From assembly GCA_038061695.1 (NCBI GenBank), contig JBBTYT010000005.1, forward strand, positions 1 to 61,076: 61,076 nt of DNA, in the 5' to 3' direction. Of the stretch, positions 5,037 through 56,734 are shown in pieces. Numbering within the stretch: position 1 is the first letter of the stretch; every line of letters begins with the position of its first letter. Source of the stretch: Patescibacteria group bacterium (GTDB taxonomy: Bacteria; Patescibacteriota; Minisyncoccia; GWC2-36-17; M10-OD1-4). Position numbers and translations under genes: made by a program. The notes beneath the pieces are model-generated. The model was given only the letters and a program-made list of their open reading frames with translations, was not told the DNA's origin and searched no databases.

Positions 5037-6059
5037 ATGAGCAACAAAATAACCGAAAAATACTTTACTCAAGATGACTTCTCTCAACGGGAAGCTGACG
5101 TTTTAGCGCAAGTTACAAGCGAGACTGGATTCGTCGTGGAAAAGGAAATTTTTCGTGGCATGATTTACGACAAGACCAAAGTTGGTAGCCTAATTTACAA
5201 GGGCATGTTGAATGGCGAACCAGCCGTACTAAAACTTCAAGGACTGAAGCCGGAAGTTGATGAAGGCAAAATCGTCCGACACTTTACCGATCAAAATAAG
5301 AGTAACCTAATTCATGTTCCCATTATATACAGACATAAGCCGTGGAGCGAAGAACGTGGATATGGCTATCTCATCACCAAATATATTGACGCGCCGAAGA
5401 TTTTCGAGATGCCGTTCGCCAGCACGGAGCAAATGCTGGATTTCGCCCGTTTCTACCAAGAGTATCGAACTTCTGCGCTTACGCGTTCTTGGATTGAACC
5501 AGAGACAAAAGACAGCTTGGTATTTACAGTTCATAGGGTAGACCACTGGCGAAAAATATCCGAATATAAAAAGCGAATAAACTTGAAAGACTATGCACCG
5601 TATCTTGTCAGATATTATCCGCTGGCAGTCAAACATTTATCATCGATTCCAATGGTTTTCTGTCACGGTCATCTTACCGCGAACGACATCTACTGTTTGC
5701 CCGATGGTTCTTTTGTAGTTCTCTCAAATTTGTTCTGGTCATATCGTCCGCAGTGGTACGATCTCGCGTTCAACATCTGGAGTTGCCTGATGCATATTCG
5801 AGACACCGACTACACTTTTGAGCAACTATTGGAATATATCTCAAAGTGGCTTGCCGTCTATCACACAATTCCGGTCGTGCAACAAGACAAGGATTTTGAA
5901 CGCAAAATAAACGCTCTTCTCCTTGAACGAACAATAGGCGCAATATTGGTTGATTTGGGGGCAAATGACTTCTATGAAAAAGAAGAAAATAAACCTTACT
6001 TCAAACATCTTCTTAATCTGCACCAGCAGTTATTTGATCATCTGGTGAAAAAACTATAA
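5037..6059 (+). CDS. APH/choline-kinase-fold phosphotransferase-like protein with a non-canonical catalytic motif
   Basis: PAVLKLQG (beta3 Lys). VFCHGHLTANDIYCLPDGSFVVLSNLFWSYRPQWYDLA aligns by eye to the APH HGDxxxxN...IDxxxxxxxDxxxDLA region, but the catalytic positions are altered. Confidence 0.55.
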   Translation: MSNKITEKYFTQDDFSQREADVLAQVTSETGFVVEKEIFRGMIYDKTKVGSLIYKGMLNGEPAVLKLQGLKPEVDEGKIVRHFTDQNKSNLIHVPIIYRHKPWSEERGYGYLITKYIDAPKIFEMPFASTEQMLDFARFYQEYRTSALTRSWIEPETKDSLVFTVHRVDHWRKISEYKKRINLKDYAPYLVRYYPLAVKHLSSIPMVFCHGHLTANDIYCLPDGSFVVLSNLFWSYRPQWYDLAFNIWSCLMHIRDTDYTFEQLLEYISKWLAVYHTIPVVQQDKDFERKINALLLERTIGAILVDLGANDFYEKEENKPYFKHLLNLHQQLFDHLVKKL

Positions 6060-10491: not shown

Positions 10492-11394
10492 ATGATCCAA
10501 AAACTCACAATACAATTCTTAGAATACCTTGAAATAGAAAAAAATAGATCTCAAAAAACACTTGAGAATTATGACCATTATCTAAAAAGATTTTTAAATA
10601 CCACAAAAATAAAAAACCCCTCAGAGATAAGTCAGGATGTCATAAGACAATACAGAATATATTTAAACAGAGTAATGGATAAAAATAATAAAACATTAAA
10701 AAAAACTACTCAAAATTATCATATGATAGCCTTGCGGGCATTTTTAAAATATCTTGCCAAAATAGATATAAAAACCTTGAGTCCAGAAAAAATAGAACTT
10801 GGTAAAAACTCGGAAAGAGAAATAGTATTCCTAGACAATGAGGAGCTTAAAAGACTCCTCTATTCTCCGAAAGGAGATGATATTAGATCATTAAGAGATA
10901 AAGCAATATTAGAAACTCTTTTTTCTACAGGACTTCGTGTCTCTGAGCTTTGCTCTTTAAATAGAAACTCAATTAATATTAATAGCGGTGAATTTTCAGT
11001 TTTAGGAAAAGGCGGAAAAATAAGAATAGTATTTTTATCAGATTCTGCCAAGGATATTTTAAAAAAATATTTAACAAAAAGGGATGATATAGATAAAGCG
11101 CTTTTTGTAAGAGATACAAATCATAAAAAAAATAATCTAAGATTAACTGCAAGATCAATCCAAAGAATAATAAAAAAATATGCTATGCGAGCCGGAATAG
11201 TAAAAAATATATCACCCCATAAACTCCGCCATAGCTTTGCGACAGATCTACTGCAAAATGGCGCTGATATAAGATCCGTTCAATCTATGCTCGGACATTC
11301 AAGTATATCAACAACACAAATATACACCCACTATACAGATAGGCACCTGAAAGATATACATAAAAAATTCCACTCTAAAAATAAATTAAAATAA
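10492..11394 (+). CDS. xerC: tyrosine recombinase, XerC/XerD type
   Basis: SAM-like N-terminal domain. Catalytic region GLRVSEL...HKLRHSFATDLLQNGADIRSVQSMLGHSSISTTQIYTH carries the R-H-R-Y residues. Confidence 0.85.
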   Translation: MIQKLTIQFLEYLEIEKNRSQKTLENYDHYLKRFLNTTKIKNPSEISQDVIRQYRIYLNRVMDKNNKTLKKTTQNYHMIALRAFLKYLAKIDIKTLSPEKIELGKNSEREIVFLDNEELKRLLYSPKGDDIRSLRDKAILETLFSTGLRVSELCSLNRNSININSGEFSVLGKGGKIRIVFLSDSAKDILKKYLTKRDDIDKALFVRDTNHKKNNLRLTARSIQRIIKKYAMRAGIVKNISPHKLRHSFATDLLQNGADIRSVQSMLGHSSISTTQIYTHYTDRHLKDIHKKFHSKNKLK

Positions 11395-16358: not shown

Positions 16359-17777
16359 TTACACCCTAAACTTTTTTTTCTCCTCCTTCTCTATAATCTC
16401 AATACTCTCTTCAGATTTTTTAACCATCCCTGATAAATCACTAATAGAAAATTCATTTAATTCTTTAACTCTTTTTTCGAGATATTCCTTATGATTTCTA
16501 TTAGAATCATCTAAAACATCTGATAAAAGAGCATTTAATATCAATCCAACTTTTGGTCCAGGTTTAATATCTAATAATTTCATAAGATCAGCCCCATTTA
16601 TCTTCAACATTTTAACTGATATAGGATCTTTAGAAACCTTATCTATCATATATTTAAAATGCCTCAATTTATAAGGCTCTGCTTTTGGCGTTCCTGAACC
16701 TATTCTATCTGCATATCTAACCTTAATTAAATCCTCCATATTTTCTAATCCAACCTTGCTCACCAATCTTCTTACTGATGACTCAGAGACCTCATCAACA
16801 TTATAATAGAATAAATGATACCTCACGAGCAAAACGACTTTATCTATTTCCTCATTTGAAAATTTTAGTCTTTTCATTATATTCCTAGTTATTTTAGCTC
16901 CAACTATATCATGATTATAGAAAGTTGAATTATAACCATCACCTTGTTTAGTTTGTGGTTTAGCGACATCATGAAATAAAGCCCCCAAACGCACCTCTAA
17001 AGAATATTTTTGCTCTGCTGTATATTGTAAAGCATTAATATTATGCTCATAAACATCGTAAATATGGTGTTTATTCTGCCCTACACCAACACCACTAAAT
17101 GTCTCAGGTATCACAAATTTCAATAAATTCAACTTCAACATTAGGTCAAAGCCATATTTTGGATTATCAGAGATAACTATCTTTACAATCTCATCTCTTA
17201 TTCTTTCTTTTGAAACAAATGCAATATTTCCTGATAATAGGGAAATTTCCCTTTCCGTATCTTCCTCAATCTTAAAATTTAATTGGGAAGCAAATCTCAC
17301 AGCCCTCATTAACCTCAAAGCATCCTCTTTGAATCTATCTTCTGGATTACCAACAGCACGAATTTCTTTATTTTTTAAATCTTTCTGGCCATCAAATGGA
17401 TCTATGATTTCGCCACTGGAGCCTAAGGCCATAGCATTTATAGTGAAATCTCTTCTTTTTAAATCTTCTTTAAGGTTTTTTGTATATTCTACAGAATCTG
17501 GATGCCTTTTATCTGAATAATCAGCATCAATCCTATAAGTAGTAACTTCTATTTGAAAAGTCTCAATAAAAACAGTTACTGTTCCGAATTTATTAATATA
17601 AATGGTTTTAGAAAATAGTCCTTGGATCTCTTCCGGTAAAGCGCTAGTTGCAATATCCCAATCTTTTGGCTCTTTGCCAATCAAAAAATCACGCACACAA
17701 CCGCCGACAGCATATGCTTCAAATCCAGCTTTATTAAGCTCTTCTATTACAAAAATAACTTCTTTTTTTAATTTCAT
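16359..17777 (-). CDS. cca: CCA-adding tRNA nucleotidyltransferase (poly(A) polymerase family with HD domain)
   Basis: GFEAYAVGGCVRDFLIGKEPKDWDIAT, RRDFTINAMA and a C-terminal HD region (LFHDVAKP). Confidence 0.9.
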   Translation of the reverse strand: MKLKKEVIFVIEELNKAGFEAYAVGGCVRDFLIGKEPKDWDIATSALPEEIQGLFSKTIYINKFGTVTVFIETFQIEVTTYRIDADYSDKRHPDSVEYTKNLKEDLKRRDFTINAMALGSSGEIIDPFDGQKDLKNKEIRAVGNPEDRFKEDALRLMRAVRFASQLNFKIEEDTEREISLLSGNIAFVSKERIRDEIVKIVISDNPKYGFDLMLKLNLLKFVIPETFSGVGVGQNKHHIYDVYEHNINALQYTAEQKYSLEVRLGALFHDVAKPQTKQGDGYNSTFYNHDIVGAKITRNIMKRLKFSNEEIDKVVLLVRYHLFYYNVDEVSESSVRRLVSKVGLENMEDLIKVRYADRIGSGTPKAEPYKLRHFKYMIDKVSKDPISVKMLKINGADLMKLLDIKPGPKVGLILNALLSDVLDDSNRNHKEYLEKRVKELNEFSISDLSGMVKKSEESIEIIEKEEKKKFRV

Positions 17778-17885
17778 AATTTAAATATACCATATAAGAT
17801 CGATTATTTACAATCGTGAAAAAAATATAAGTTGTATAAGTTTGATTTTAAATAAAATTTAATATATCATTCTTTTCATGCGCTT

Positions 17886-17960
17886 GCTCTCGTCGTTCAA
17901 TGGATAAGACACTCCCCTGCGAAGGGAGAAATGCAGGTTCGATTCCTGCCGAGAGCACCA
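17886..17960 (+). tRNA. tRNA-Arg(GCG), CCA encoded
   Basis: Manual cloverleaf: acceptor GCTCTCG/CGAGAGC, anticodon stem CTCCC/GGGAG, loop CTGCGAA (anticodon GCG), T arm GCAGG-TTCGATT-CCTGC, discriminator A, 3' CCA. Confidence 0.9.
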
Positions 17961-18050
17961 CGTAGGAAAAGTCAATTCGAACCATATTTTAGGAGAAAGA
18001 AGAAAAGAAAAATTTTTAATAATTGAATTCATAGGATTTTGAGCAAAAAA

Positions 18051-18072
18051 CAGCAGAAATGCTGATTTTTTT
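18051..18072 (+). terminator. short hairpin + T-run after tRNA-Arg
   Basis: CAGCA-GAAA-TGCTG followed by ATTTTTTT. An A-run upstream makes it potentially bidirectional. The stem is only 5 bp. Confidence 0.4.
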
Positions 18073-18200
18073 ATTTGGCTTGACAACAAACACCAGATAT
18101 GTTAACCTTTGCATAGAGAATCGGAATCGTCCGAAATCCCCTTACCATGAGGGAATCGTGGTAGTAGCACATTCCAAAAAACGAAAGGAGACATAGTAGT

Positions 18201-18701
18201 ATGAACATCAACAGGCTGTATCAGATCCTTCGGGAAACCACCGCTCAACTTCGGAAGGGCGGGGAAATCGAAGGCGACCCCAAGCTCGTGGACGCCGTCA
18301 AGAACTTCAAGGAAGGCGACAACATCGACAAGCTCCCCGGTGGCTCGGTGCACATCTACGCCATGCCACACGAATCGCAGACAAAGGACGGCATCGAGAA
18401 GGTGGACCTCCACTTCATCGTCGTGGGCGTGGACAAGGCCAAGGCGGAGCATTACAAGGACGAGCTCATCGCCATCCTCAAGACCTACCCGCAGCCGGAG
18501 CGCCTCGCTGGTGGTCCCTCCTACATCGAAGTCGGCAGTGAGATTGGCGACCAGGGGGTGGCGTTCCAGTTGTTTGCCCTCGGCAAGGTTCTCGGTCTCT
18601 GGGACATCATCACGCCGGAGAAATTTGGCTTAACCGGGTCCGAGGCAAACGAGATGGCGAGCATGGGCTTCGTGATGATAAGTGGTTTCAAAGCCGCCTA
18701 A
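18201..18701 (+). CDS. hypothetical protein (166 aa) with a high-GC, GC3-rich coding sequence; no family recognised
   Basis: SD AAAGGAG lies 8 nt upstream of the ATG. There is a strong third-position G/C bias (AAC ATC AAC AGG CTG ... GAC GCC GTC AAG AAC TTC AAG). A strong terminator follows immediately. Shadow ORFs on other frames are typical of high-GC coding DNA. Confidence 0.8.
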   Translation: MNINRLYQILRETTAQLRKGGEIEGDPKLVDAVKNFKEGDNIDKLPGGSVHIYAMPHESQTKDGIEKVDLHFIVVGVDKAKAEHYKDELIAILKTYPQPERLAGGPSYIEVGSEIGDQGVAFQLFALGKVLGLWDIITPEKFGLTGSEANEMASMGFVMISGFKAA

Positions 18702-18734
18702 CTCACGAGCAATCAGTTCCGTTTGTTTCATCAC

Positions 18735-18779
18735 GAGCCCCTTGCGAAACACGTTTTCGCTCGGGGCTCTATTTTTTTC
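18735..18779 (+). terminator. strong rho-independent terminator
   Basis: Interrupted stem GAGCCCC-tt-GCGAAA [cacgt] TTTCGC-tc-GGGGCTC, followed by TATTTTTTT. Confidence 0.8.
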
Positions 18780-19090
18780 TAAAATCATTGAAACTTTCAT
18801 AGAAATGTTTTATTATTTAAGTATTCGCTTCGCGAATTATTGGATTGAATGCCACCAAAAAAACTTGTTCCCGTTTTGTCTGAGCGAAGCGAAGTTACAA
18901 AATGCAATCCCGCCTATTTAAGTATAAGGCTAGGAAATTGTCACCCAGTAGGTGATTATGCTAAATCAGCGGTGCGGCTCCGCCGCCTTTTCGGATTGTT
19001 TTCGCGAGGGGACTTCCTCGCCACCGCAGGCGGCGAAATGCGTTCAGACTAATTCAAAAATTTTGGATTCTTTCAACGGGAGAACCTTCT

Positions 19091-19510
19091 TTAGAATAAA
19101 AATCTCATATACCAATGTTTGATTAGAGAATTAGTTTCATCAATATATTCTTTTTGTTTATCTGGTTTATGTGTCCATTGAGGGACGCTTGGTAGAATCA
19201 TCAAGAAGTAGAGTAGCGCATAAGGAAGATATCTCTTCTGAAGCTCTGCAGAAAGTGGATGAATAGATAAGTAGCCCTCTGAAAACTTTTCAATAAGATA
19301 TTTACTCATGGCACCCATAGTGCTCGTTGGACCTGGGCCACGATAAAGTACGTTTGCTAACTCTTCTTCACTATGTCCAAACTTTGCCATAAATTCAATT
19401 ATATTAATTGGCCTAGTTGTTCTATACACCTCTACGGTTCTATAAAAACGATTACCATATGCATTCAAACGACACTTTTGGCGTTTTAGATTAAAAAAAA
19501 GTATATTCAA
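19091..19510 (-). CDS. hypothetical protein (orphan; start uncertain, TTG at 19510 or ATG at 19390)
   Basis: Open frame of 139 codons with intermediate GC. No recognisable motifs and no SD. It lies inside the tRNA-Arg islet. Confidence 0.4.
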   Translation of the reverse strand: MNILFFNLKRQKCRLNAYGNRFYRTVEVYRTTRPINIIEFMAKFGHSEEELANVLYRGPGPTSTMGAMSKYLIEKFSEGYLSIHPLSAELQKRYLPYALLYFLMILPSVPQWTHKPDKQKEYIDETNSLIKHWYMRFLF

Positions 19511-19624
19511 CCGACCAGAAAAAGAAATTTTAAGAGTATAAAAAGATTATTTATTAACTCCTTGCATATTTTTTGAATATATGATATTGTGTTTAAATAT
19601 TAGTAAATTATCTTATAAAAGACT

Positions 19625-19891
19625 ATGTTAAGAACAGAAAAGAAAGCTGGAGCAATTAAACTAACCAGATTACATAAAAATGATACTGGTTCTCCTGAAG
19701 CTCAAATATCTTTATTTTCAGAAAAAATAAATGAATTAACCGATCATCTCAAGAAGCATCCTAAGGATAACCACTCCAGAAGAGGCTTAATTACTATGGT
19801 TACCAAGAGAAGAAGCTTATTAAATTACCTAGGGAGAGAAAGCGAGAAAAGGTATGATTCTTTAGTAAAAAAACTTGGTTTAAGAAAATAA
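19625..19891 (+). CDS. rpsO: 30S ribosomal protein S15
   Basis: [48 protein letters not shown]. Confidence 0.95.
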
Positions 19892-19897
19892 AAGAAA

Positions 19898-19930
19898 GAA
19901 AATTCTGTTTTAAAACGGAATTTTCTTTTA
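19898..19930 (+). terminator. hairpin terminator/attenuator after rpsO
   Basis: GAAAATTCTGTTTT / AAAACGGAATTTTC (one G-U pair), followed by TTTTAT. Confidence 0.6.
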
Positions 19931-19943
19931 TATCTTTATACAA

Positions 19944-20459
19944 ATGCCTGTCATAAAACATCCTAGTCAAAGAGTTGGTATATTTATAGATGTACAAAAT
20001 CTCTATCATTCTGCAAAAAATCTTTACAAAACAAAGGTAAATTTTAAAGAAGTCCTAAACACAGCGGTAGCCGGAAGACAACTTGTTAGAGCTATTGGTT
20101 ATGTCATCTCAACAGAGTCCGGAGAAGAAAGAATATTCTTTGATGCTTTAACAAAACTTGGAATTGAAACAAAGGAGAAAGAACTTCAGATATTTTTTGG
20201 TGGTCTTAAAAAGGCGGACTGGGATGTTGCTATAGCAGTTGACGCCTTACGCTTAGCACCATCTTTGGATACTGTCGTGCTTTGTTCTGGGGATGGAGAT
20301 TTCGCACCGCTTGTTGAACAGCTTCAAAGTATGGGAAAACAGGTTGAAATAATAGCATTTTCAAAAAGTGCCTCATCAAAACTACAGGAAGCATGTGATG
20401 ATTTCGTTGATCTTTGTGAAAAACCTGAAAAATATCTTTTCGGTAAAAAAAGAAGATAA
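19944..20459 (+). CDS. NYN-domain (LabA/DUF88-like) predicted ribonuclease
   Basis: VGIFIDVQNLYHSAK...WDVAIAVDAL...VVLCSGDGDFAPLVEQLQSMGKQVEIIAF. Confidence 0.8.
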   Translation: MPVIKHPSQRVGIFIDVQNLYHSAKNLYKTKVNFKEVLNTAVAGRQLVRAIGYVISTESGEERIFFDALTKLGIETKEKELQIFFGGLKKADWDVAIAVDALRLAPSLDTVVLCSGDGDFAPLVEQLQSMGKQVEIIAFSKSASSKLQEACDDFVDLCEKPEKYLFGKKRR

Positions 20460-20560
20460 TTAAAAAATAATCAATTTCGTCTGAATTATTGATACTCGGA
20501 TAGGTAGACTATATATGTAGTCTAAAATCTGGGTGTCAAAAAAAGGCGATATTTAAAATA

Positions 20561-53954: not shown

Positions 53955-55328
53955 ATGGATCATCAAGAACTATGGCAGTGTGTATTGTCGGAAATAGAAA
54001 TTTCTGTTTCTAAGGCGAATTTTAATACATGGTTTCGTAATACTAGTATTTACGATAGGGATGGAAACACTATCATAGTTTCTGTTCCAAGTTCATTCAC
54101 CAAAGAATGGCTCGAAAGCAAATTTAATAAATTTATATTAAAATCATTGCGAGATTTAAACTCCGAAATAAGGGAGGTTAAATTCATAGTATCAACTAAT
54201 AAAAGTAAACCGAGCCAAAATGACCACGCGACAGCAAAGAGAAAGAAAGAGGCGCCAAAAAACACAGAAAGCCAACTTAAATTAAATGGCTTAAATAAAG
54301 ACTCTGATAATAATTTAAACCAAAAATATACCTTTGATACATTTGTCGTTGGCTCTTCTAATGAACTTGCTCACGCAGCAGCAAAATCAATCACAAAAAA
54401 TCTGGGAATAGTATATAACCCCCTATTCATCTATGGCGGATCAGGGCTTGGCAAAACACATCTAATACAGTCAATTGGCAATGAAGTTTTAAAACAAACT
54501 CCCAATGCTCGCGTTAAATATCTCTCTGCTGAAAAATTTGCCAGTGAACTAGTATCCTCTATTCAATGCGGTGAGATGGAGAAGTTTAAGAACAAATACC
54601 GCCAAATAGATCTTCTCATTATAGATGATATTCAATTTTTATCAGGAAAAGAGAAGACTCAAGAAGAGTTTTTTTATACATTTAATTCATTGTATGAAAA
54701 AAATAAGCAGATAATAATAAGCTCTGATAGACCCCCTAAAGCAATAAAAACTCTTGAGGAAAGATTGAGATCAAGATTTGAAGGTGGGATGATAGCCGAC
54801 ATAAGCTACCCGGATTTTGAAACAAGACTCGCTATTCTAAAATCTAAAATAGCCATTAATAACACATCCCTACCAGAAAATGTAATAAATTATATCGCAG
54901 AAAACTTTAAAAGAAATATAAGAGAGTTGGAAGGAGCTTTAAATAAAGTCATTATACAAGCAACTCTTTTAAATAACACTGAAATTTCTCTTGATTCCAT
55001 TAAAAAAACTCTTTCTCCTGACTCTGATATGCCTAAAAAAATAATAAGTATTAAACAAATAATCAAGGTTGTCTCTGATTTTTATGATGTTGAAGAAAAA
55101 TTACTACTCCAAAGAACAAGAAGACAAGAAATAGTTAAGCCAAGACAAGTAGCTATGTTTTTATTAAGAAACGAATATAAGGCATCTTTCCCAACTATTG
55201 GAAGCAAAATAGGTGGGAGAGACCACACAACAGTAATACATGCTTGTGAAAAAATAGGTAATGAGCTTAAAAATAATAATATGCTAGTTGAAGAAATTAA
55301 TCTTATAAAACAGCGACTATATACTTAG
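53955..55328 (+). CDS. dnaA: chromosomal replication initiator protein DnaA
   Basis: YTFDTFVVGSSNELAHAAA, Walker A GGSGLGKTHL, IDLLIIDDIQFL, and the C-terminal DNA-binding domain (RQVAMFLLR...IGSKIGGRDHTTVIHA). Confidence 0.97.
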   Translation: MDHQELWQCVLSEIEISVSKANFNTWFRNTSIYDRDGNTIIVSVPSSFTKEWLESKFNKFILKSLRDLNSEIREVKFIVSTNKSKPSQNDHATAKRKKEAPKNTESQLKLNGLNKDSDNNLNQKYTFDTFVVGSSNELAHAAAKSITKNLGIVYNPLFIYGGSGLGKTHLIQSIGNEVLKQTPNARVKYLSAEKFASELVSSIQCGEMEKFKNKYRQIDLLIIDDIQFLSGKEKTQEEFFYTFNSLYEKNKQIIISSDRPPKAIKTLEERLRSRFEGGMIADISYPDFETRLAILKSKIAINNTSLPENVINYIAENFKRNIRELEGALNKVIIQATLLNNTEISLDSIKKTLSPDSDMPKKIISIKQIIKVVSDFYDVEEKLLLQRTRRQEIVKPRQVAMFLLRNEYKASFPTIGSKIGGRDHTTVIHACEKIGNELKNNNMLVEEINLIKQRLYT

Positions 55329-55606
55329 GTGTTTACATCTTGTTGATAAACTATTTATATATTCTTAGTAATTTGTTTTTCTACTTGTTTATAAATTATT
55401 ACTAATGTATTTATAAAAAAAGTGTTATTTTAATATAACTTACAGCTAAGTTTAAATTAACAACTTATTTAAGTATTTATACACAATCTTATCCAGATAT
55501 TAAAAAGCTTAAAAATCACTATTTAAAAAGGTAATACACTCTTATCCACAAGAAATTAAGTCTCTAATAATAATAATAAATTATATATTATATAAATAAA
55601 AATATT
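55329..55606. other. candidate oriC (dnaA-dnaN spacer): DnaA boxes plus an AT-rich unwinding tract
   Basis: Perfect TTATCCACA at 55542-55550 and TTATCCAGA at 55489-55497. An almost pure A/T run lies at 55565-55606. Confidence 0.6.
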
Positions 55607-56734
55607 ATGTCTAATACTGAAAATTTGTTAAAAATAATTTGTCTTCAAGAAAATATTAAAAGTGGTCTTGCTATCTCTGAAAGAATATCTAGTAAAAACT
55701 CATCTTTACCGATTTTAGCTAATACACTTCTAAAAGCAGAAAAAGGATTTTTAAAAATATCCTCAACAGATCTTGAAATTGGTGTTGAAATATTAATACC
55801 ATGTAAAGTTGAGGGAAATGGAAGTTTAATTATACCTACTAAATTAGTCTTAAATTTTATAAATAATTTACCAAACACAAAAATTTACATAGAAGAACAA
55901 GATGGGAAGCTTTTAATAAGCGCAGATAATTTTAAAACAAGTATACCAATATTAAATAAAGATGAATTTCCAATAATACCAAAAATAAAAGACGGTTCGG
56001 AGGTGATTATTAATTCTCAGATATTAAAAAATGCAATAGGGTGTGTTTTAAATTCTGTTTCTTTATCAGATTTAAAACCAGAAATATCAGGTATTTTATT
56101 TGATTTTAAAAAAGAATCTTTGAATATTGTTGCTACTGATGGGTTTAGATTATCAGAAAAAGTGATTTTAAATAAGAATATATATCAATTAGATGATAAT
56201 AAAAGTTTTATATTACCTCAAAAATCAGCTCAAGAGTTGGTTAAGATTATAGATTCAAATAATGATATTAAGATTATTATAGGAGAAAATCAAGTGGCAT
56301 TTTTGTTTGATAAGATAAATTTAATATCAAGAATTATAAATGGAGAATATCCAAATTATAAACAAATAATACCAAAAACAAATAAGACAAGGATATCTTT
56401 AAATAAGGAAGAGTTTGTTTTAAAATTAAAGCTGGCAAGTATATTTTCATCAAATATTAACGATATTAAATTTTTAATTAATGTTGATAGTGGAGAATTT
56501 AATATAAAATCACAAGATAAAATTAAGGGTGAGTTAAATTCTAGTATTGATTTTGATGACTTAAGCGGTGAGAGTGTAGAAGTTGTCTTTAATTGGAGGT
56601 ATTTATTAGATGGTTTATCTAATATTAATAATGATAAAGTTGTTTTTGAATTAAATAGTCATACCTCCTCAGCTTTATTAAAAGCAAAAGATGATGATCA
56701 TTATTTATATATTATAATGCCTATTAAACAATAA
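55607..56734 (+). CDS. dnaN: DNA polymerase III beta sliding clamp
   Basis: 375 aa with a three-domain repeat pattern (LPILANTLLKAE...FKTSIPILNKDEFP...ATDGFRLSEK...GEYPNYKQIIP). Confidence 0.95.
   Translation: MSNTENLLKIICLQENIKSGLAISERISSKNSSLPILANTLLKAEKGFLKISSTDLEIGVEILIPCKVEGNGSLIIPTKLVLNFINNLPNTKIYIEEQDGKLLISADNFKTSIPILNKDEFPIIPKIKDGSEVIINSQILKNAIGCVLNSVSLSDLKPEISGILFDFKKESLNIVATDGFRLSEKVILNKNIYQLDDNKSFILPQKSAQELVKIIDSNNDIKIIIGENQVAFLFDKINLISRIINGEYPNYKQIIPKTNKTRISLNKEEFVLKLKLASIFSSNINDIKFLINVDSGEFNIKSQDKIKGELNSSIDFDDLSGESVEVVFNWRYLLDGLSNINNDKVVFELNSHTSSALLKAKDDDHYLYIIMPIKQ

What the first reader, a model, noticed from the sequence alone, without database searches (positions are those of the whole stretch)
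17961..19560. Abrupt high-GC islet next to tRNA-Arg carrying an orphan 166-aa gene
Seen:
- Directly downstream of tRNA-Arg(GCG), the composition switches from about 20-30% GC to about 55-60% GC (hand counts on sample stretches) between about 18100 and 19060.
- ORF 18201-18701 has a strong GC3 bias, a good SD (AAAGGAG) and a strong GC-rich terminator (18735-18779). It therefore looks like an intact, expressible gene from a high-GC donor.
- It is followed by a GC-rich non-coding tail and a second orphan ORF (19091-19510, minus strand) of intermediate GC.
- No integrase, transposase or direct repeat of the tRNA 3' end was found.

Established knowledge: tRNA 3' ends are classic integration sites, and such a compositional contrast means recent transfer or misassembly. 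Inference: this is a recent acquisition from a high-GC organism, conceivably the host or partner of a symbiotic small-genome bacterium. I cannot place the protein in any family.
Basis: partly seen in the sequence, partly recalled or inferred. Interest (0 to 1): 0.78.

Follow-up and report, generated by a model that had tools for sequence, protein, structure and literature searches.

The report
Phage-derived gene cassette in a Patescibacteria genome
The GC-rich islet is real: a self-contained promoter–gene–terminator cassette, related to genes of uncultivated temperate phages, was acquired horizontally by a 32%-GC Azambacteria-like bacterium and its GC is now decaying; this is an ordinary kind of event, but the protein family it carries is widespread and uncharacterised.

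Summary
The compositional anomaly is genuine. ORF 18201-18701 has GC 0.58 and GC3 0.81, against 0.325 and 0.25 for 35 native ORFs (z = 12).

- **Not a chimera.** An independent 162-kb assembly is collinear across both junctions.
- **Not ancient.** A syntenic sister genome has tRNA-Arg, then an MFS transporter, then rpsO. It has no such gene and no GC peak.
- **Not an orphan.** The protein has 676 close homologues, and relatives in 546 clusters at 50% identity. It has no Pfam, PHROG, NCBIfam or PADLOC match. The AlphaFold model is confident (pLDDT 92) and has no structural neighbour.
- **Relatives.** In 55-68%-GC contigs, relatives sit in accessory regions of temperate phages, and their GC matches their surroundings. 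A tight clade, including the window's copy, sits in at least nine different Patescibacteria contexts (flank GC 0.32-0.48). This clade shares its promoter, 5'UTR, terminator and often a structured tail.
- **Selection and decay.** dN/dS is 0.11-0.24. Third-position changes on terminal branches run mostly GC→AT.
- **The second "orphan" ORF** is a 5'-truncated remnant of a native kinase gene.
- **No integration machinery.** I found no integrase, no att repeat and no target-site duplication.

Verdict: this is a moron-like horizontally acquired cassette. The protein's function and the transfer mechanism are unresolved. Interest is moderate.

The parts
17886..17960 (+). tRNA-Arg(GCG). It is native and marks the left border. 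It is conserved at the same syntenic position in the sister genome.
   Evidence: ARAGORN; Rfam tRNA, 60.9 bits; sister L223 7835-7907.
17965..18079 (+). Left non-coding module of the acquired segment. It is AT-rich and contains a bidirectional terminator-like hairpin at 18051-18064 with flanking T/A runs.
   Evidence: 86-90% nucleotide identity to L037 and L051 upstream of their cassette genes, in other contexts. Hairpin found on both strands.
18080..18108 (+). Cassette promoter: TTGACA, 17 nt, TGtTAACCT (extended -10).
   Evidence: CTTGAC and TATGCTA-type boxes are invariant or nearly invariant in 11 cassette copies from different contexts. Homology between contexts begins here. Read directly from the sequence. 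Not flagged by the simple scan, because the -10 box matches only 3 of 6 positions.
18115..18200 (+). 5'UTR. Hairpins at 18121-18134 and 18145-18161; conserved GCACATTCCAAA at 18167-18178; Shine-Dalgarno AAAGGAG at 18184-18190.
   Evidence: Alignments. One compensatory change in hairpin 2 (in L001). Folding is not significant on its own (z = -1.3).
18201..18701 (+). 166-aa protein-coding gene of an uncharacterised phage/MGE-associated family. It is acidic (pI 5.2).
   Evidence: dN/dS 0.11-0.24.
18735..18779 (+). Intrinsic terminator of the cassette gene.
   Evidence: -23.2 kcal/mol, z = -6.1. Conserved in L009, L029, L051, L001, L014 and L037.
18788..18816 (+). Promoter-like site (TTGAAA, 17 nt, TATTAT) in front of the tail module.
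   Evidence: 10 of 12 matches, the best in the 2-kb scan. A similar TTGTAA...TATTCT motif, read by eye, is present in L009, L029 and L051.
18817..19066 (+). Structured non-coding tail module. It has a 5' hairpin TATTCGCTTCGCGAAT, a long-range closing helix, a variable GC-rich core, and the conserved end GCGAAATGCGTTCAGACTAATTCAAAAAT. It may be a small RNA or a recombination/repeat module.
   Evidence: The covariance model finds it only next to the cassette gene. No Rfam match. It is present as a 115-nt inverted repeat on both sides of the gene in L051.
19091..19510 (-). 5'-truncated remnant of a native APH/fructosamine-kinase-family gene. Only about the last 100 codons are homologous. It is not part of the cassette, but it lies in the variable interval between tRNA-Arg and rpsO.
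   Evidence: GC 0.343, GC3 0.271.

Best explanation
The islet is a horizontally acquired, self-contained expression cassette. It consists of an upstream insulating terminator, a sigma-70 promoter, a 5'UTR, a 166-aa gene and an intrinsic terminator, plus an associated structured non-coding tail. The whole spans about 17965-19066. It lies in a variable interval between a conserved tRNA-Arg and rpsO in an Azambacteria-like (Patescibacteria) genome of 32% GC.

The gene belongs to a large uncharacterised family. In genomes and contigs of 55-68% GC, its members sit in the early/accessory regions of temperate phages and have the local GC content. One tight clade of the family circulates among Patescibacteria as a promoter-to-terminator unit and has landed in many unrelated chromosomal sites. 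The high GC (ancestral GC3 about 0.85) is a legacy of a pool at about 60% GC. It is now being eroded by the host's AT-biased mutation, while the protein stays under purifying selection.

Shown: foreign origin, absence from the sister genome, integrity of the assembly, the extent of the unit, its spread across contexts, selective constraint, and the direction of decay.

Inferred: entry was by illegitimate or recombinase-assisted recombination rather than by tRNA-specific integration. The protein acts in phage-host conflict (anti-defence or exclusion), possibly through a winged-helix-like C-terminal half. I give that functional guess no more than about 0.25.
For: - **Composition.**
- **Assembly.** L100, an independent 162-kb contig, is 99.98% identical over 20.3 kb and collinear across the islet.
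- **Sister genome.** L223 has the synteny pnp-NYN-rpsO-[MFS]-tRNA-Arg(GCG)-CCA-UPF0102-NusA-PPase-Tig-ClpP-Xer-RNaseY. It has no cassette and GC of at most 0.41.
- **Family size.** 676 homologues and 546 clusters at 50% identity.
- **Phage link.** Ten IMG/VR viral contigs carry a relative. Phage-type neighbourhoods contain integrase, Mom, Lar, Acb3, P4 cII, amidase and, repeatedly, DUF5131.
- **GC tracking.** Gene GC tracks flank GC across most of the family (0.33/0.34 up to 0.675/0.68). In the tight clade it does not: gene GC is 0.55-0.615 and GC3 0.65-0.84, against flanks of 0.32-0.48.
- **Different contexts.** rplS-tRNA-Leu; RNase R/SMC; EF-P/ABC-3; DsbA; P-type ATPase; YchF/CCA; a GmrSD-MTase island; a serine recombinase.
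- **Extent of the unit.** Nucleotide homology between contexts starts at the promoter. It ends after the terminator or after the tail.
- **Constraint.** dN/dS is 0.11-0.24.
- **Decay.**
  - Changes unique to one copy at third positions: 45 S>W against 3 W>S (S = G/C, W = A/T).
  - Parsimony, terminal branches: 104 S>W against 22 W>S; internal branches: 19 against 13.
  - Clade consensus GC3 is 0.855.
Against: - No mobility machinery, att site, terminal inverted repeats or target-site duplication is present in the window. The route of entry is therefore unknown.
- dS to the closest copies is 0.29-0.44, so "recent" is only relative. The parsimony counts are small and biased, and long residence with slow decay is not fully excluded.
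- The sister genome carries a different gene (MFS) in the interval rather than an empty site. This shows replacement, not a clean insertion.
- No hit in 50,697 GenBank phage genomes or 72,556 plasmids. The phage link rests on metagenomic viral contigs and prophage-like neighbourhoods.
- The protein's function is entirely unproven. Foldseek best E is 0.17-0.27.
Confidence: 0.7

Rival explanations
1. The cassette is a non-autonomous transposable or invertible element. Its ends are the structured tail module used as terminal inverted repeats, and a recombinase encoded elsewhere moves it in trans. The window's copy would be a left-truncated, immobilised relic. This is a mechanism for the transfer and is compatible with the best explanation.
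For: - In L051 the gene is bracketed by 115-nt inverted copies of the tail (95% complementary, 895 nt apart). A 497-aa large serine recombinase and a LAGLIDADG/HTH ORF lie directly beside them.
- The 926-nt contig L037 starts inside the left arm and ends just before the right arm.
- The covariance model finds the tail only next to this gene.
- L038 has a transposon-type HTH ORF upstream. L003 has TnpB nearby.
- Two Logan contigs stop at exactly window position 19016, inside the tail.
Against: - Only one lineage (L051/L049/L050/L098) shows both arms.
- The window, L009 and L029 have only the right copy. L001, L046, L052 and L039 have none.
- Homology breakpoints differ between contexts. No target-site duplication was seen.
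- No recombinase lies near the window's copy. The only tyrosine recombinase (10492-11394) is syntenic in the sister genome and Xer-like.
Confidence: 0.25
2. It is the remnant of a classical integrase-mediated genomic island that integrated into the 3' end of tRNA-Arg. The integrase and the distal att repeat were later deleted.
For: - The foreign DNA begins within 5 nt of the encoded CCA end.
- In L001 another copy starts 6 nt after tRNA-Leu.
- The interval downstream of this tRNA differs between sister genomes.
- The adjacent kinase gene is truncated, which indicates past rearrangement.
Against: - No integrase, and no direct repeat of the tRNA 3' end, even with 3 mismatches.
- About 8 of 10 contexts have no tRNA.
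- The two tRNA-adjacent copies join the tRNA at different cassette positions: 115 nt upstream of the promoter in the window, and at the promoter in L001.
Confidence: 0.12
3. The gene is a long-standing resident of Patescibacteria. Its high GC is actively maintained, by selection on the mRNA/DNA or by GC-biased gene conversion through frequent recombination between cells.
For: - The clade keeps GC3 0.65-0.84 despite dS of 0.3-1.2 between copies in hosts of 32-48% GC.
- Internal branches look compositionally stationary (19 S>W against 13 W>S).
- All 4 differences between two near-identical strains lie in the islet. Three of the variant alleles also occur in other cassette variants, which is compatible with gene conversion.
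Against: - Terminal branches are strongly GC→AT.
- Some copies have clearly ameliorated: L012 has GC3 0.42 in a 35%-GC host, and L052 has GC3 0.65 with 38 S>W changes.
- The sister genome lacks the gene.
- Contexts all differ, and the rest of the family equilibrates with its hosts.
Confidence: 0.08
4. The donor was the physical host or partner cell of this episymbiont.
For: The composition of about 60% GC fits many soil and groundwater Proteobacteria or Actinobacteria. High-GC relatives occur in Reyranella, Isosphaeraceae and Ardenticatenales MAGs.
Against: - These relatives are only 51-66% identical.
- The closest copies (83-89%) are in other Patescibacteria and share the non-coding flanks.
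- The closest high-GC copy (L003, 76%) is in a phage-like block, and its own GC is below that of its surroundings.
- No host is known.
Confidence: 0.07
5. It is an assembly chimera that joins reads of a high-GC organism into a low-GC contig.
For: The GC change is abrupt. Two Logan contigs end at 19016, inside the tail.
Against: - An independent 162-kb contig from another sample (coverage 17) crosses both junctions with 4 mismatches in 20.3 kb.
- The same cassette with the same flanks is embedded in low-GC DNA in many other MAGs and assemblies.
Confidence: 0.02

Closest known systems
Phage 'morons' (autonomous promoter-gene-terminator units of deviating composition inserted between genes; concept of Hendrix and colleagues, cited from memory)
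   Same: - Single gene with its own sigma-70 promoter and intrinsic terminator.
- Composition sharply different from the neighbours.
- Homologues sit in accessory regions of temperate phages.
- Found at different positions in different genomes.
   Different: - It sits in a cellular chromosome with no prophage around it.
- It has an extra upstream terminator and a structured non-coding tail.
- It circulates among Patescibacteria rather than among phages.
- No benefit to the host has been shown.
tRNA-associated genomic islands/islets
   Same: - It abuts the 3' end of a tRNA gene.
- Its composition is foreign.
- It is absent from a syntenic sister genome.
   Different: - No integrase and no att duplication of the tRNA end.
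- Only about 1.1 kb long.
- Most other copies are not at tRNAs.
Cargo-carrying MITE-like or inverted-repeat-flanked non-autonomous elements, and recombinase-associated invertible segments
   Same: In one relative (L051), 115-nt inverted repeats bracket the gene next to a large serine recombinase. Repeat modules are shared between copies.
   Different: - The window's copy has only one arm.
- There is no target-site duplication.
- The termini are not recurrent across contexts.
Uncharacterised small acidic proteins of phage early regions (anti-defence/Acr-like accessory genes)
   Same: - About 165 aa and acidic (median pI 5.0).
- Located among Lar, Mom, Acb3 and HTH genes in temperate-phage contigs.
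- Patchy distribution across phyla.
   Different: - No sequence or structural match to any known anti-defence, defence or regulator family.
- In Patescibacteria it is a stand-alone chromosomal gene under purifying selection.

Membership tests
Integrase-mediated tRNA genomic island | Located at the 3' end of a tRNA gene | tested here: met
   Foreign homology starts at about 17965; the tRNA ends at 17960.
Integrase-mediated tRNA genomic island | Direct repeat of the tRNA 3' end (attL/attR) at the distal border | tested here: not met
   No second copy of the last 15 or 23 nt in 61 kb, with up to 3 mismatches allowed.
Integrase-mediated tRNA genomic island | Island-encoded integrase | tested here: not met
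   Only two ORFs lie in the interval, and neither is a recombinase. The Xer-like gene at 10492-11394 is syntenic in the sister genome.
Phage moron | Own promoter and own terminator flanking a single gene | tested here: met
   Conserved TTGACA/extended -10 boxes. Terminator z = -6.1. This is sequence-level evidence only.
Phage moron | Composition deviating from the neighbours | tested here: met
   GC3 0.81 against 0.25, z about 12.
Phage moron | Resides in a phage or prophage genome | tested here: not met
   The flanks are housekeeping genes (CCA, tRNA, rpsO, pnp) that are syntenic with the sister genome.
TIR transposon / MITE | Terminal inverted repeats at both ends | tested here: not met
   The window has only the right-hand module. 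Both arms occur only in L051.
TIR transposon / MITE | Target-site duplication | tested here: not met
   None at the window or L051 borders.
Integron gene cassette | Promoterless ORF followed by attC with RYYYAAC/GTTRRRY cores, near intI | tested here: not met
   The cassette has its own promoter. The tail's conserved end reads GTTCAGA/GTTCGGG, which does not fit GTTRRRY. No integron integrase is present.
Known RNA families (Rfam 15) for the 5'UTR and tail | Match to a covariance model | tested here: not met
   Only the tRNA matched at E up to 1 over 17000-20500.
Known protein families (Pfam-A, PHROGs, NCBIfam, PADLOC, PDB, BFVD) | Significant sequence or structure match | tested here: not met
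   - No hit for the query or for 10 distant members.
- PDB sequence searches: best E 0.29 for the single protein and 0.095 for the profile.
- Foldseek best E 0.27 against PDB and 0.17 against BFVD.
APH/fructosamine-kinase family (ORF 19091-19510) | Full kinase domain with the catalytic HGN/D motif region | tested here: not met
   Only the C-terminal ~100 residues align to homologues that carry PF01636/PF03881. The LLHGNYVFGN region is missing. It is a remnant.

The most novel reading that the evidence does not exclude
The unit is a new type of small mobile 'gene capsule' specific to Patescibacteria. It combines a promoter-gene-terminator cassette with a dedicated structured RNA/repeat module, which serves as a recombination end or as a co-transferred small RNA. 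It moves between very different episymbiont genomes, for example through a large serine recombinase in trans or DNA uptake. It carries a protein with a previously unseen fold that acts in phage-host or symbiont-host conflict.
Probability: 0.15. Interest if true: 0.65.

Novelty: new member of a known kind. Interest (0 to 1): 0.42.

Why it matters
This is a clean, datable example of gene flow into an ultra-small, AT-rich CPR genome. The same expression-ready cassette sits in at least nine unrelated chromosomal sites of different Patescibacteria, and its GC is eroding on the terminal branches. That gives a natural marker for the rates and routes of transfer in organisms that cannot be cultured.

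It also flags a widespread protein family (546 clusters at 50% identity). The family has a confident predicted structure, no annotation, and no relative among sequenced phage isolates or plasmids. This makes it a reasonable candidate for functional screening, for example as an anti-defence or exclusion protein.

The event itself, acquisition of an accessory gene from mobile DNA, is ordinary.

Tried and rejected
- **Replication origin at the islet.** The GC-skew sign change and the divergent gene blocks at about 18 kb suggested it. I rejected it because there are no DnaA boxes there. dnaA-dnaN, with four box matches at 55341-55550, lies elsewhere.
- **GC-rich region as a known ncRNA.** Rfam gave only the tRNA.
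- **5'UTR as a riboswitch or leader.** The folding z-score is -1.3, and the consensus fold has 3 pairs with no covariation.
- **Tail motif in viral contigs.**
That is in the range I estimate for chance matches.
  - None of those hits extended in BLAST.
  - The UTR motif gave 0 hits.
- **Isolate phages and plasmids.** tblastn with three family members found nothing.
- **Domain fusions in longer family members.** The extensions are uninformative.
- **Polarising the four strain SNPs as de novo mutations.** This holds only in part. The window carries the majority allele at all four sites, but three of the L100 alleles also occur in other cassette variants.
- **Look-up of the exact 166-aa protein.** It failed, and one look-up was lost.
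- **Literature searches.** Five of six failed technically. The one that ran showed only that DUF5131 is listed on RadicalSAM.org as part of the radical SAM superfamily.
Full report
**Observation**

The window is a genome segment of about 32% GC. It carries NusA, a CCA-adding enzyme, S15, PNPase and dnaA-dnaN. The best named relatives of its CCA enzyme are Candidatus Azambacteria, in Patescibacteria.

- tRNA-Arg(GCG) lies at 17886-17960.
- Downstream of the tRNA, from about 18100, 200-nt windows rise to GC 0.50-0.62 over 18100-18700. The tail to about 19100 has GC 0.39-0.47.
- ORF 18201-18701 has GC 0.581 and GC3 0.808. Thirty-five native ORFs average 0.325 and 0.249, with a maximum GC3 of 0.452, so z is about 12.
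The terminator folds at -23.2 kcal/mol, z = -6.1.
- No integrase or transposase is present, and no repeat of the tRNA end was found.

Three points differ from the finding. The true high-GC stretch ends at the stop codon. The minus-strand ORF has native composition (0.343/0.271). Neither ORF is an orphan.

**Not an artefact, not ancient**

A 162-kb contig from another Hainich aquifer sample (L100, coverage 17) is collinear with the window over 20.3 kb, including the islet. It differs at four positions.

A sister genome (GCA_003056085.1; CCA enzyme 79% identical) keeps the whole neighbourhood: pnp, NYN, rpsO, then the variable interval, then tRNA-Arg(GCG), CCA, UPF0102, NusA, PPase, trigger factor, ClpP, Xer and RNase Y. 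Between rpsO and the tRNA it carries an MFS transporter gene instead. It has no relative of the 166-aa gene, no kinase remnant and no GC peak. The interval downstream of this tRNA is therefore a replacement hot spot, and the islet is specific to the window's lineage.

**The protein**

It has 676 homologues at E below 1e-3 in the 90%-identity database. It has relatives in 546 clusters of the 50%-identity library. The core is highly conserved: GGPSYIEVGxEIGDQGxAFQLFALGKVLGLWDVITP.

Pfam, PHROGs, NCBIfam and PADLOC give nothing, either for the query or for ten distant members. AlphaFold2 run on a 27-sequence alignment gives pLDDT 92 and pTM 0.81. Foldseek finds no match below E = 0.1 in PDB or BFVD. 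The weak top hits are winged-helix regulators aligned over about 80 residues.

The family is acidic, with a median pI of 5.0. It is absent from 50,697 GenBank phages and 72,556 plasmids.

**Where relatives live**

Ten IMG/VR viral contigs carry a relative. Several prophage-like contigs do too, including one binned as Reyranella. In these, the gene sits among small early/accessory genes with integrase, Mom, Lar, Acb3, P4 cII and an amidase. DUF5131 recurs in these neighbourhoods.

Only 10 of 185,579 species-representative genomes have the gene. They are spread over Patescibacteria, CPR2, Planctomycetota, Chloroflexota and a gammaproteobacterial MAG.

Across the family, gene GC follows flank GC, from 0.33/0.34 up to 0.675/0.68. 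The exception is the clade closest to the window. There the gene GC is 0.55-0.615 and GC3 0.65-0.84, against flanks of 0.32-0.48. A neighbour-joining tree places a 65%-GC phage-like copy (L003) as sister to this clade, or inside it.

**The transferred unit**

Nucleotide homology between copies in unrelated contexts begins at a conserved promoter (CTTGACA, 17 nt, TGnTAT..T). It continues through a 5'UTR (hairpin, GCACATTCCAAA, AAAGGAG), the ORF and the terminator.

In the window, L009, L029 and L051 it then continues into a second module (window 18817-19066). This module is preceded by a promoter-like site. It has a 5' hairpin with one compensatory change, a closing helix, a variable GC-rich core and a conserved 3' end.

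A covariance model of this tail finds it only beside the cassette gene. Rfam has no match.

The window and L037/L051 also share about 115 nt upstream of the promoter, including a bidirectional terminator hairpin.

The contexts all differ:
- rplS and tRNA-Leu
- RNase R and SMC
- EF-P and ABC-3
- DsbA
- a P-type ATPase
- YchF and CCA
- a GmrSD/methyltransferase island
- a large serine recombinase

In L051, 115-nt inverted copies of the tail bracket the gene next to that recombinase. This is a lead on mobility, but it is seen in one lineage only.

**Evolutionary state**

dN/dS is 0.11-0.24, and dS to the nearest copies is 0.29-0.44. Below, S means G or C and W means A or T.

- The clade consensus has GC3 0.855.
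- Changes unique to single copies at third positions are 45 S>W against 3 W>S.
- Parsimony gives 104 S>W against 22 W>S on terminal branches, and 19 against 13 on internal branches.
- Some copies are clearly ameliorated, for example L012 and L052.

This fits diversification in a GC-rich pool, followed by separate entries into AT-rich hosts and decay there. The counts are small, and long residence is not rigorously excluded.

All four differences between the two strain-level assemblies fall inside about 950 bp of islet, out of 20.3 kb. By my own calculation, the chance of that under a uniform spread is (950/20300)^4, about 5e-6. Three of the four variant alleles exist in other cassette variants. 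I cannot distinguish between faster mutation, gene conversion and assembly cross-talk.

**The second ORF**

ORF 19091-19510(-) aligns only over its last ~100 residues to proteins with APH/fructosamine-kinase domains. It lacks the catalytic region. It is a native, 5'-truncated remnant. Its stop codon lies about 25 nt from the end of the cassette tail.

**Interpretation**

The best explanation (0.7) is a moron-like, horizontally acquired expression cassette of phage/MGE ancestry, now decaying in GC while kept by selection. The mechanism of entry is open. A recombinase-mobilised element flanked by inverted repeats (0.25) is compatible with this. So is a degraded tRNA island (0.12). Maintenance of GC by selection or biased gene conversion (0.08), a host/partner donor (0.07) and a chimera (0.02) are unlikely.

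The protein's role in phage-host conflict is a guess from genomic context. It resembles known small acidic accessory proteins in setting only, and it fails every membership test I could run.

**Novelty and score**

This is a new member of a known kind: a horizontally acquired accessory cassette. Interest is moderate (0.42). What lifts it is the unannotated widespread family, the confident but unmatched predicted fold, the unusually clean multi-context spread in Patescibacteria, and the unexplained structured tail.

Noticed in passing
window 17886-17960; L223 7835-7907: The tRNA-Arg carries anticodon GCG rather than the usual bacterial ACG. It is conserved in the sister genome at the same syntenic site.
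   Followed up: partly
window 53955-56734: dnaA (53955-55328) and dnaN (55607-56734) lie here, with four DnaA-box matches at 55341-55550 in a very AT-rich stretch. This is probably oriC. The GC-skew sign change at about 18 kb coincides with divergent gene blocks, not with DnaA boxes.
   Followed up: partly
window 18407, 18471, 18731, 18904 vs L100: All four differences between two independent assemblies of this organism over 20.3 kb lie inside the islet. Three of the alternative alleles also occur in other cassette variants.
   Followed up: partly
window 19016; L101, L102: Two Logan contigs from different runs, both 100% identical to the window, end at exactly position 19016, inside the GC-rich hairpin region of the tail. 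This could reflect an assembly-graph branch, a coverage drop or heterogeneity.
   Followed up: no
L051 35-3947: A relative's cassette is bracketed by 115-nt inverted repeats. It lies next to a 497-aa large serine recombinase, a LAGLIDADG/HTH ORF and a beta-lactamase-family fragment. Further nested inverted copies lie at 841-966 and 2144-2345.
   Followed up: partly
L001 7804-7886; L057 5735-7324; window 16359-17960: Three of about ten cassette contexts are next to a tRNA gene or the CCA-adding enzyme gene. Others are next to RNase R or EF-P. This may just reflect the gene content of tiny genomes.
   Followed up: no
L003, L040, L042, L044, L045: In phage-like contigs the family gene recurs within a few genes of DUF5131 (PF07505), which RadicalSAM.org lists as part of the radical SAM superfamily (PMC9477430). 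A functional link is possible.
   Followed up: no
window 5037-6059: A 340-aa ORF with no Pfam match lies in the second most GC-rich kilobase of the window (GC 0.418).
   Followed up: no
L029 1-4734: In the Yanofskybacteria copy, the cassette sits at the end of a defence-type cluster: HTH, a 280-aa ORF, an N6/N4 methyltransferase and GmrSD.
   Followed up: no
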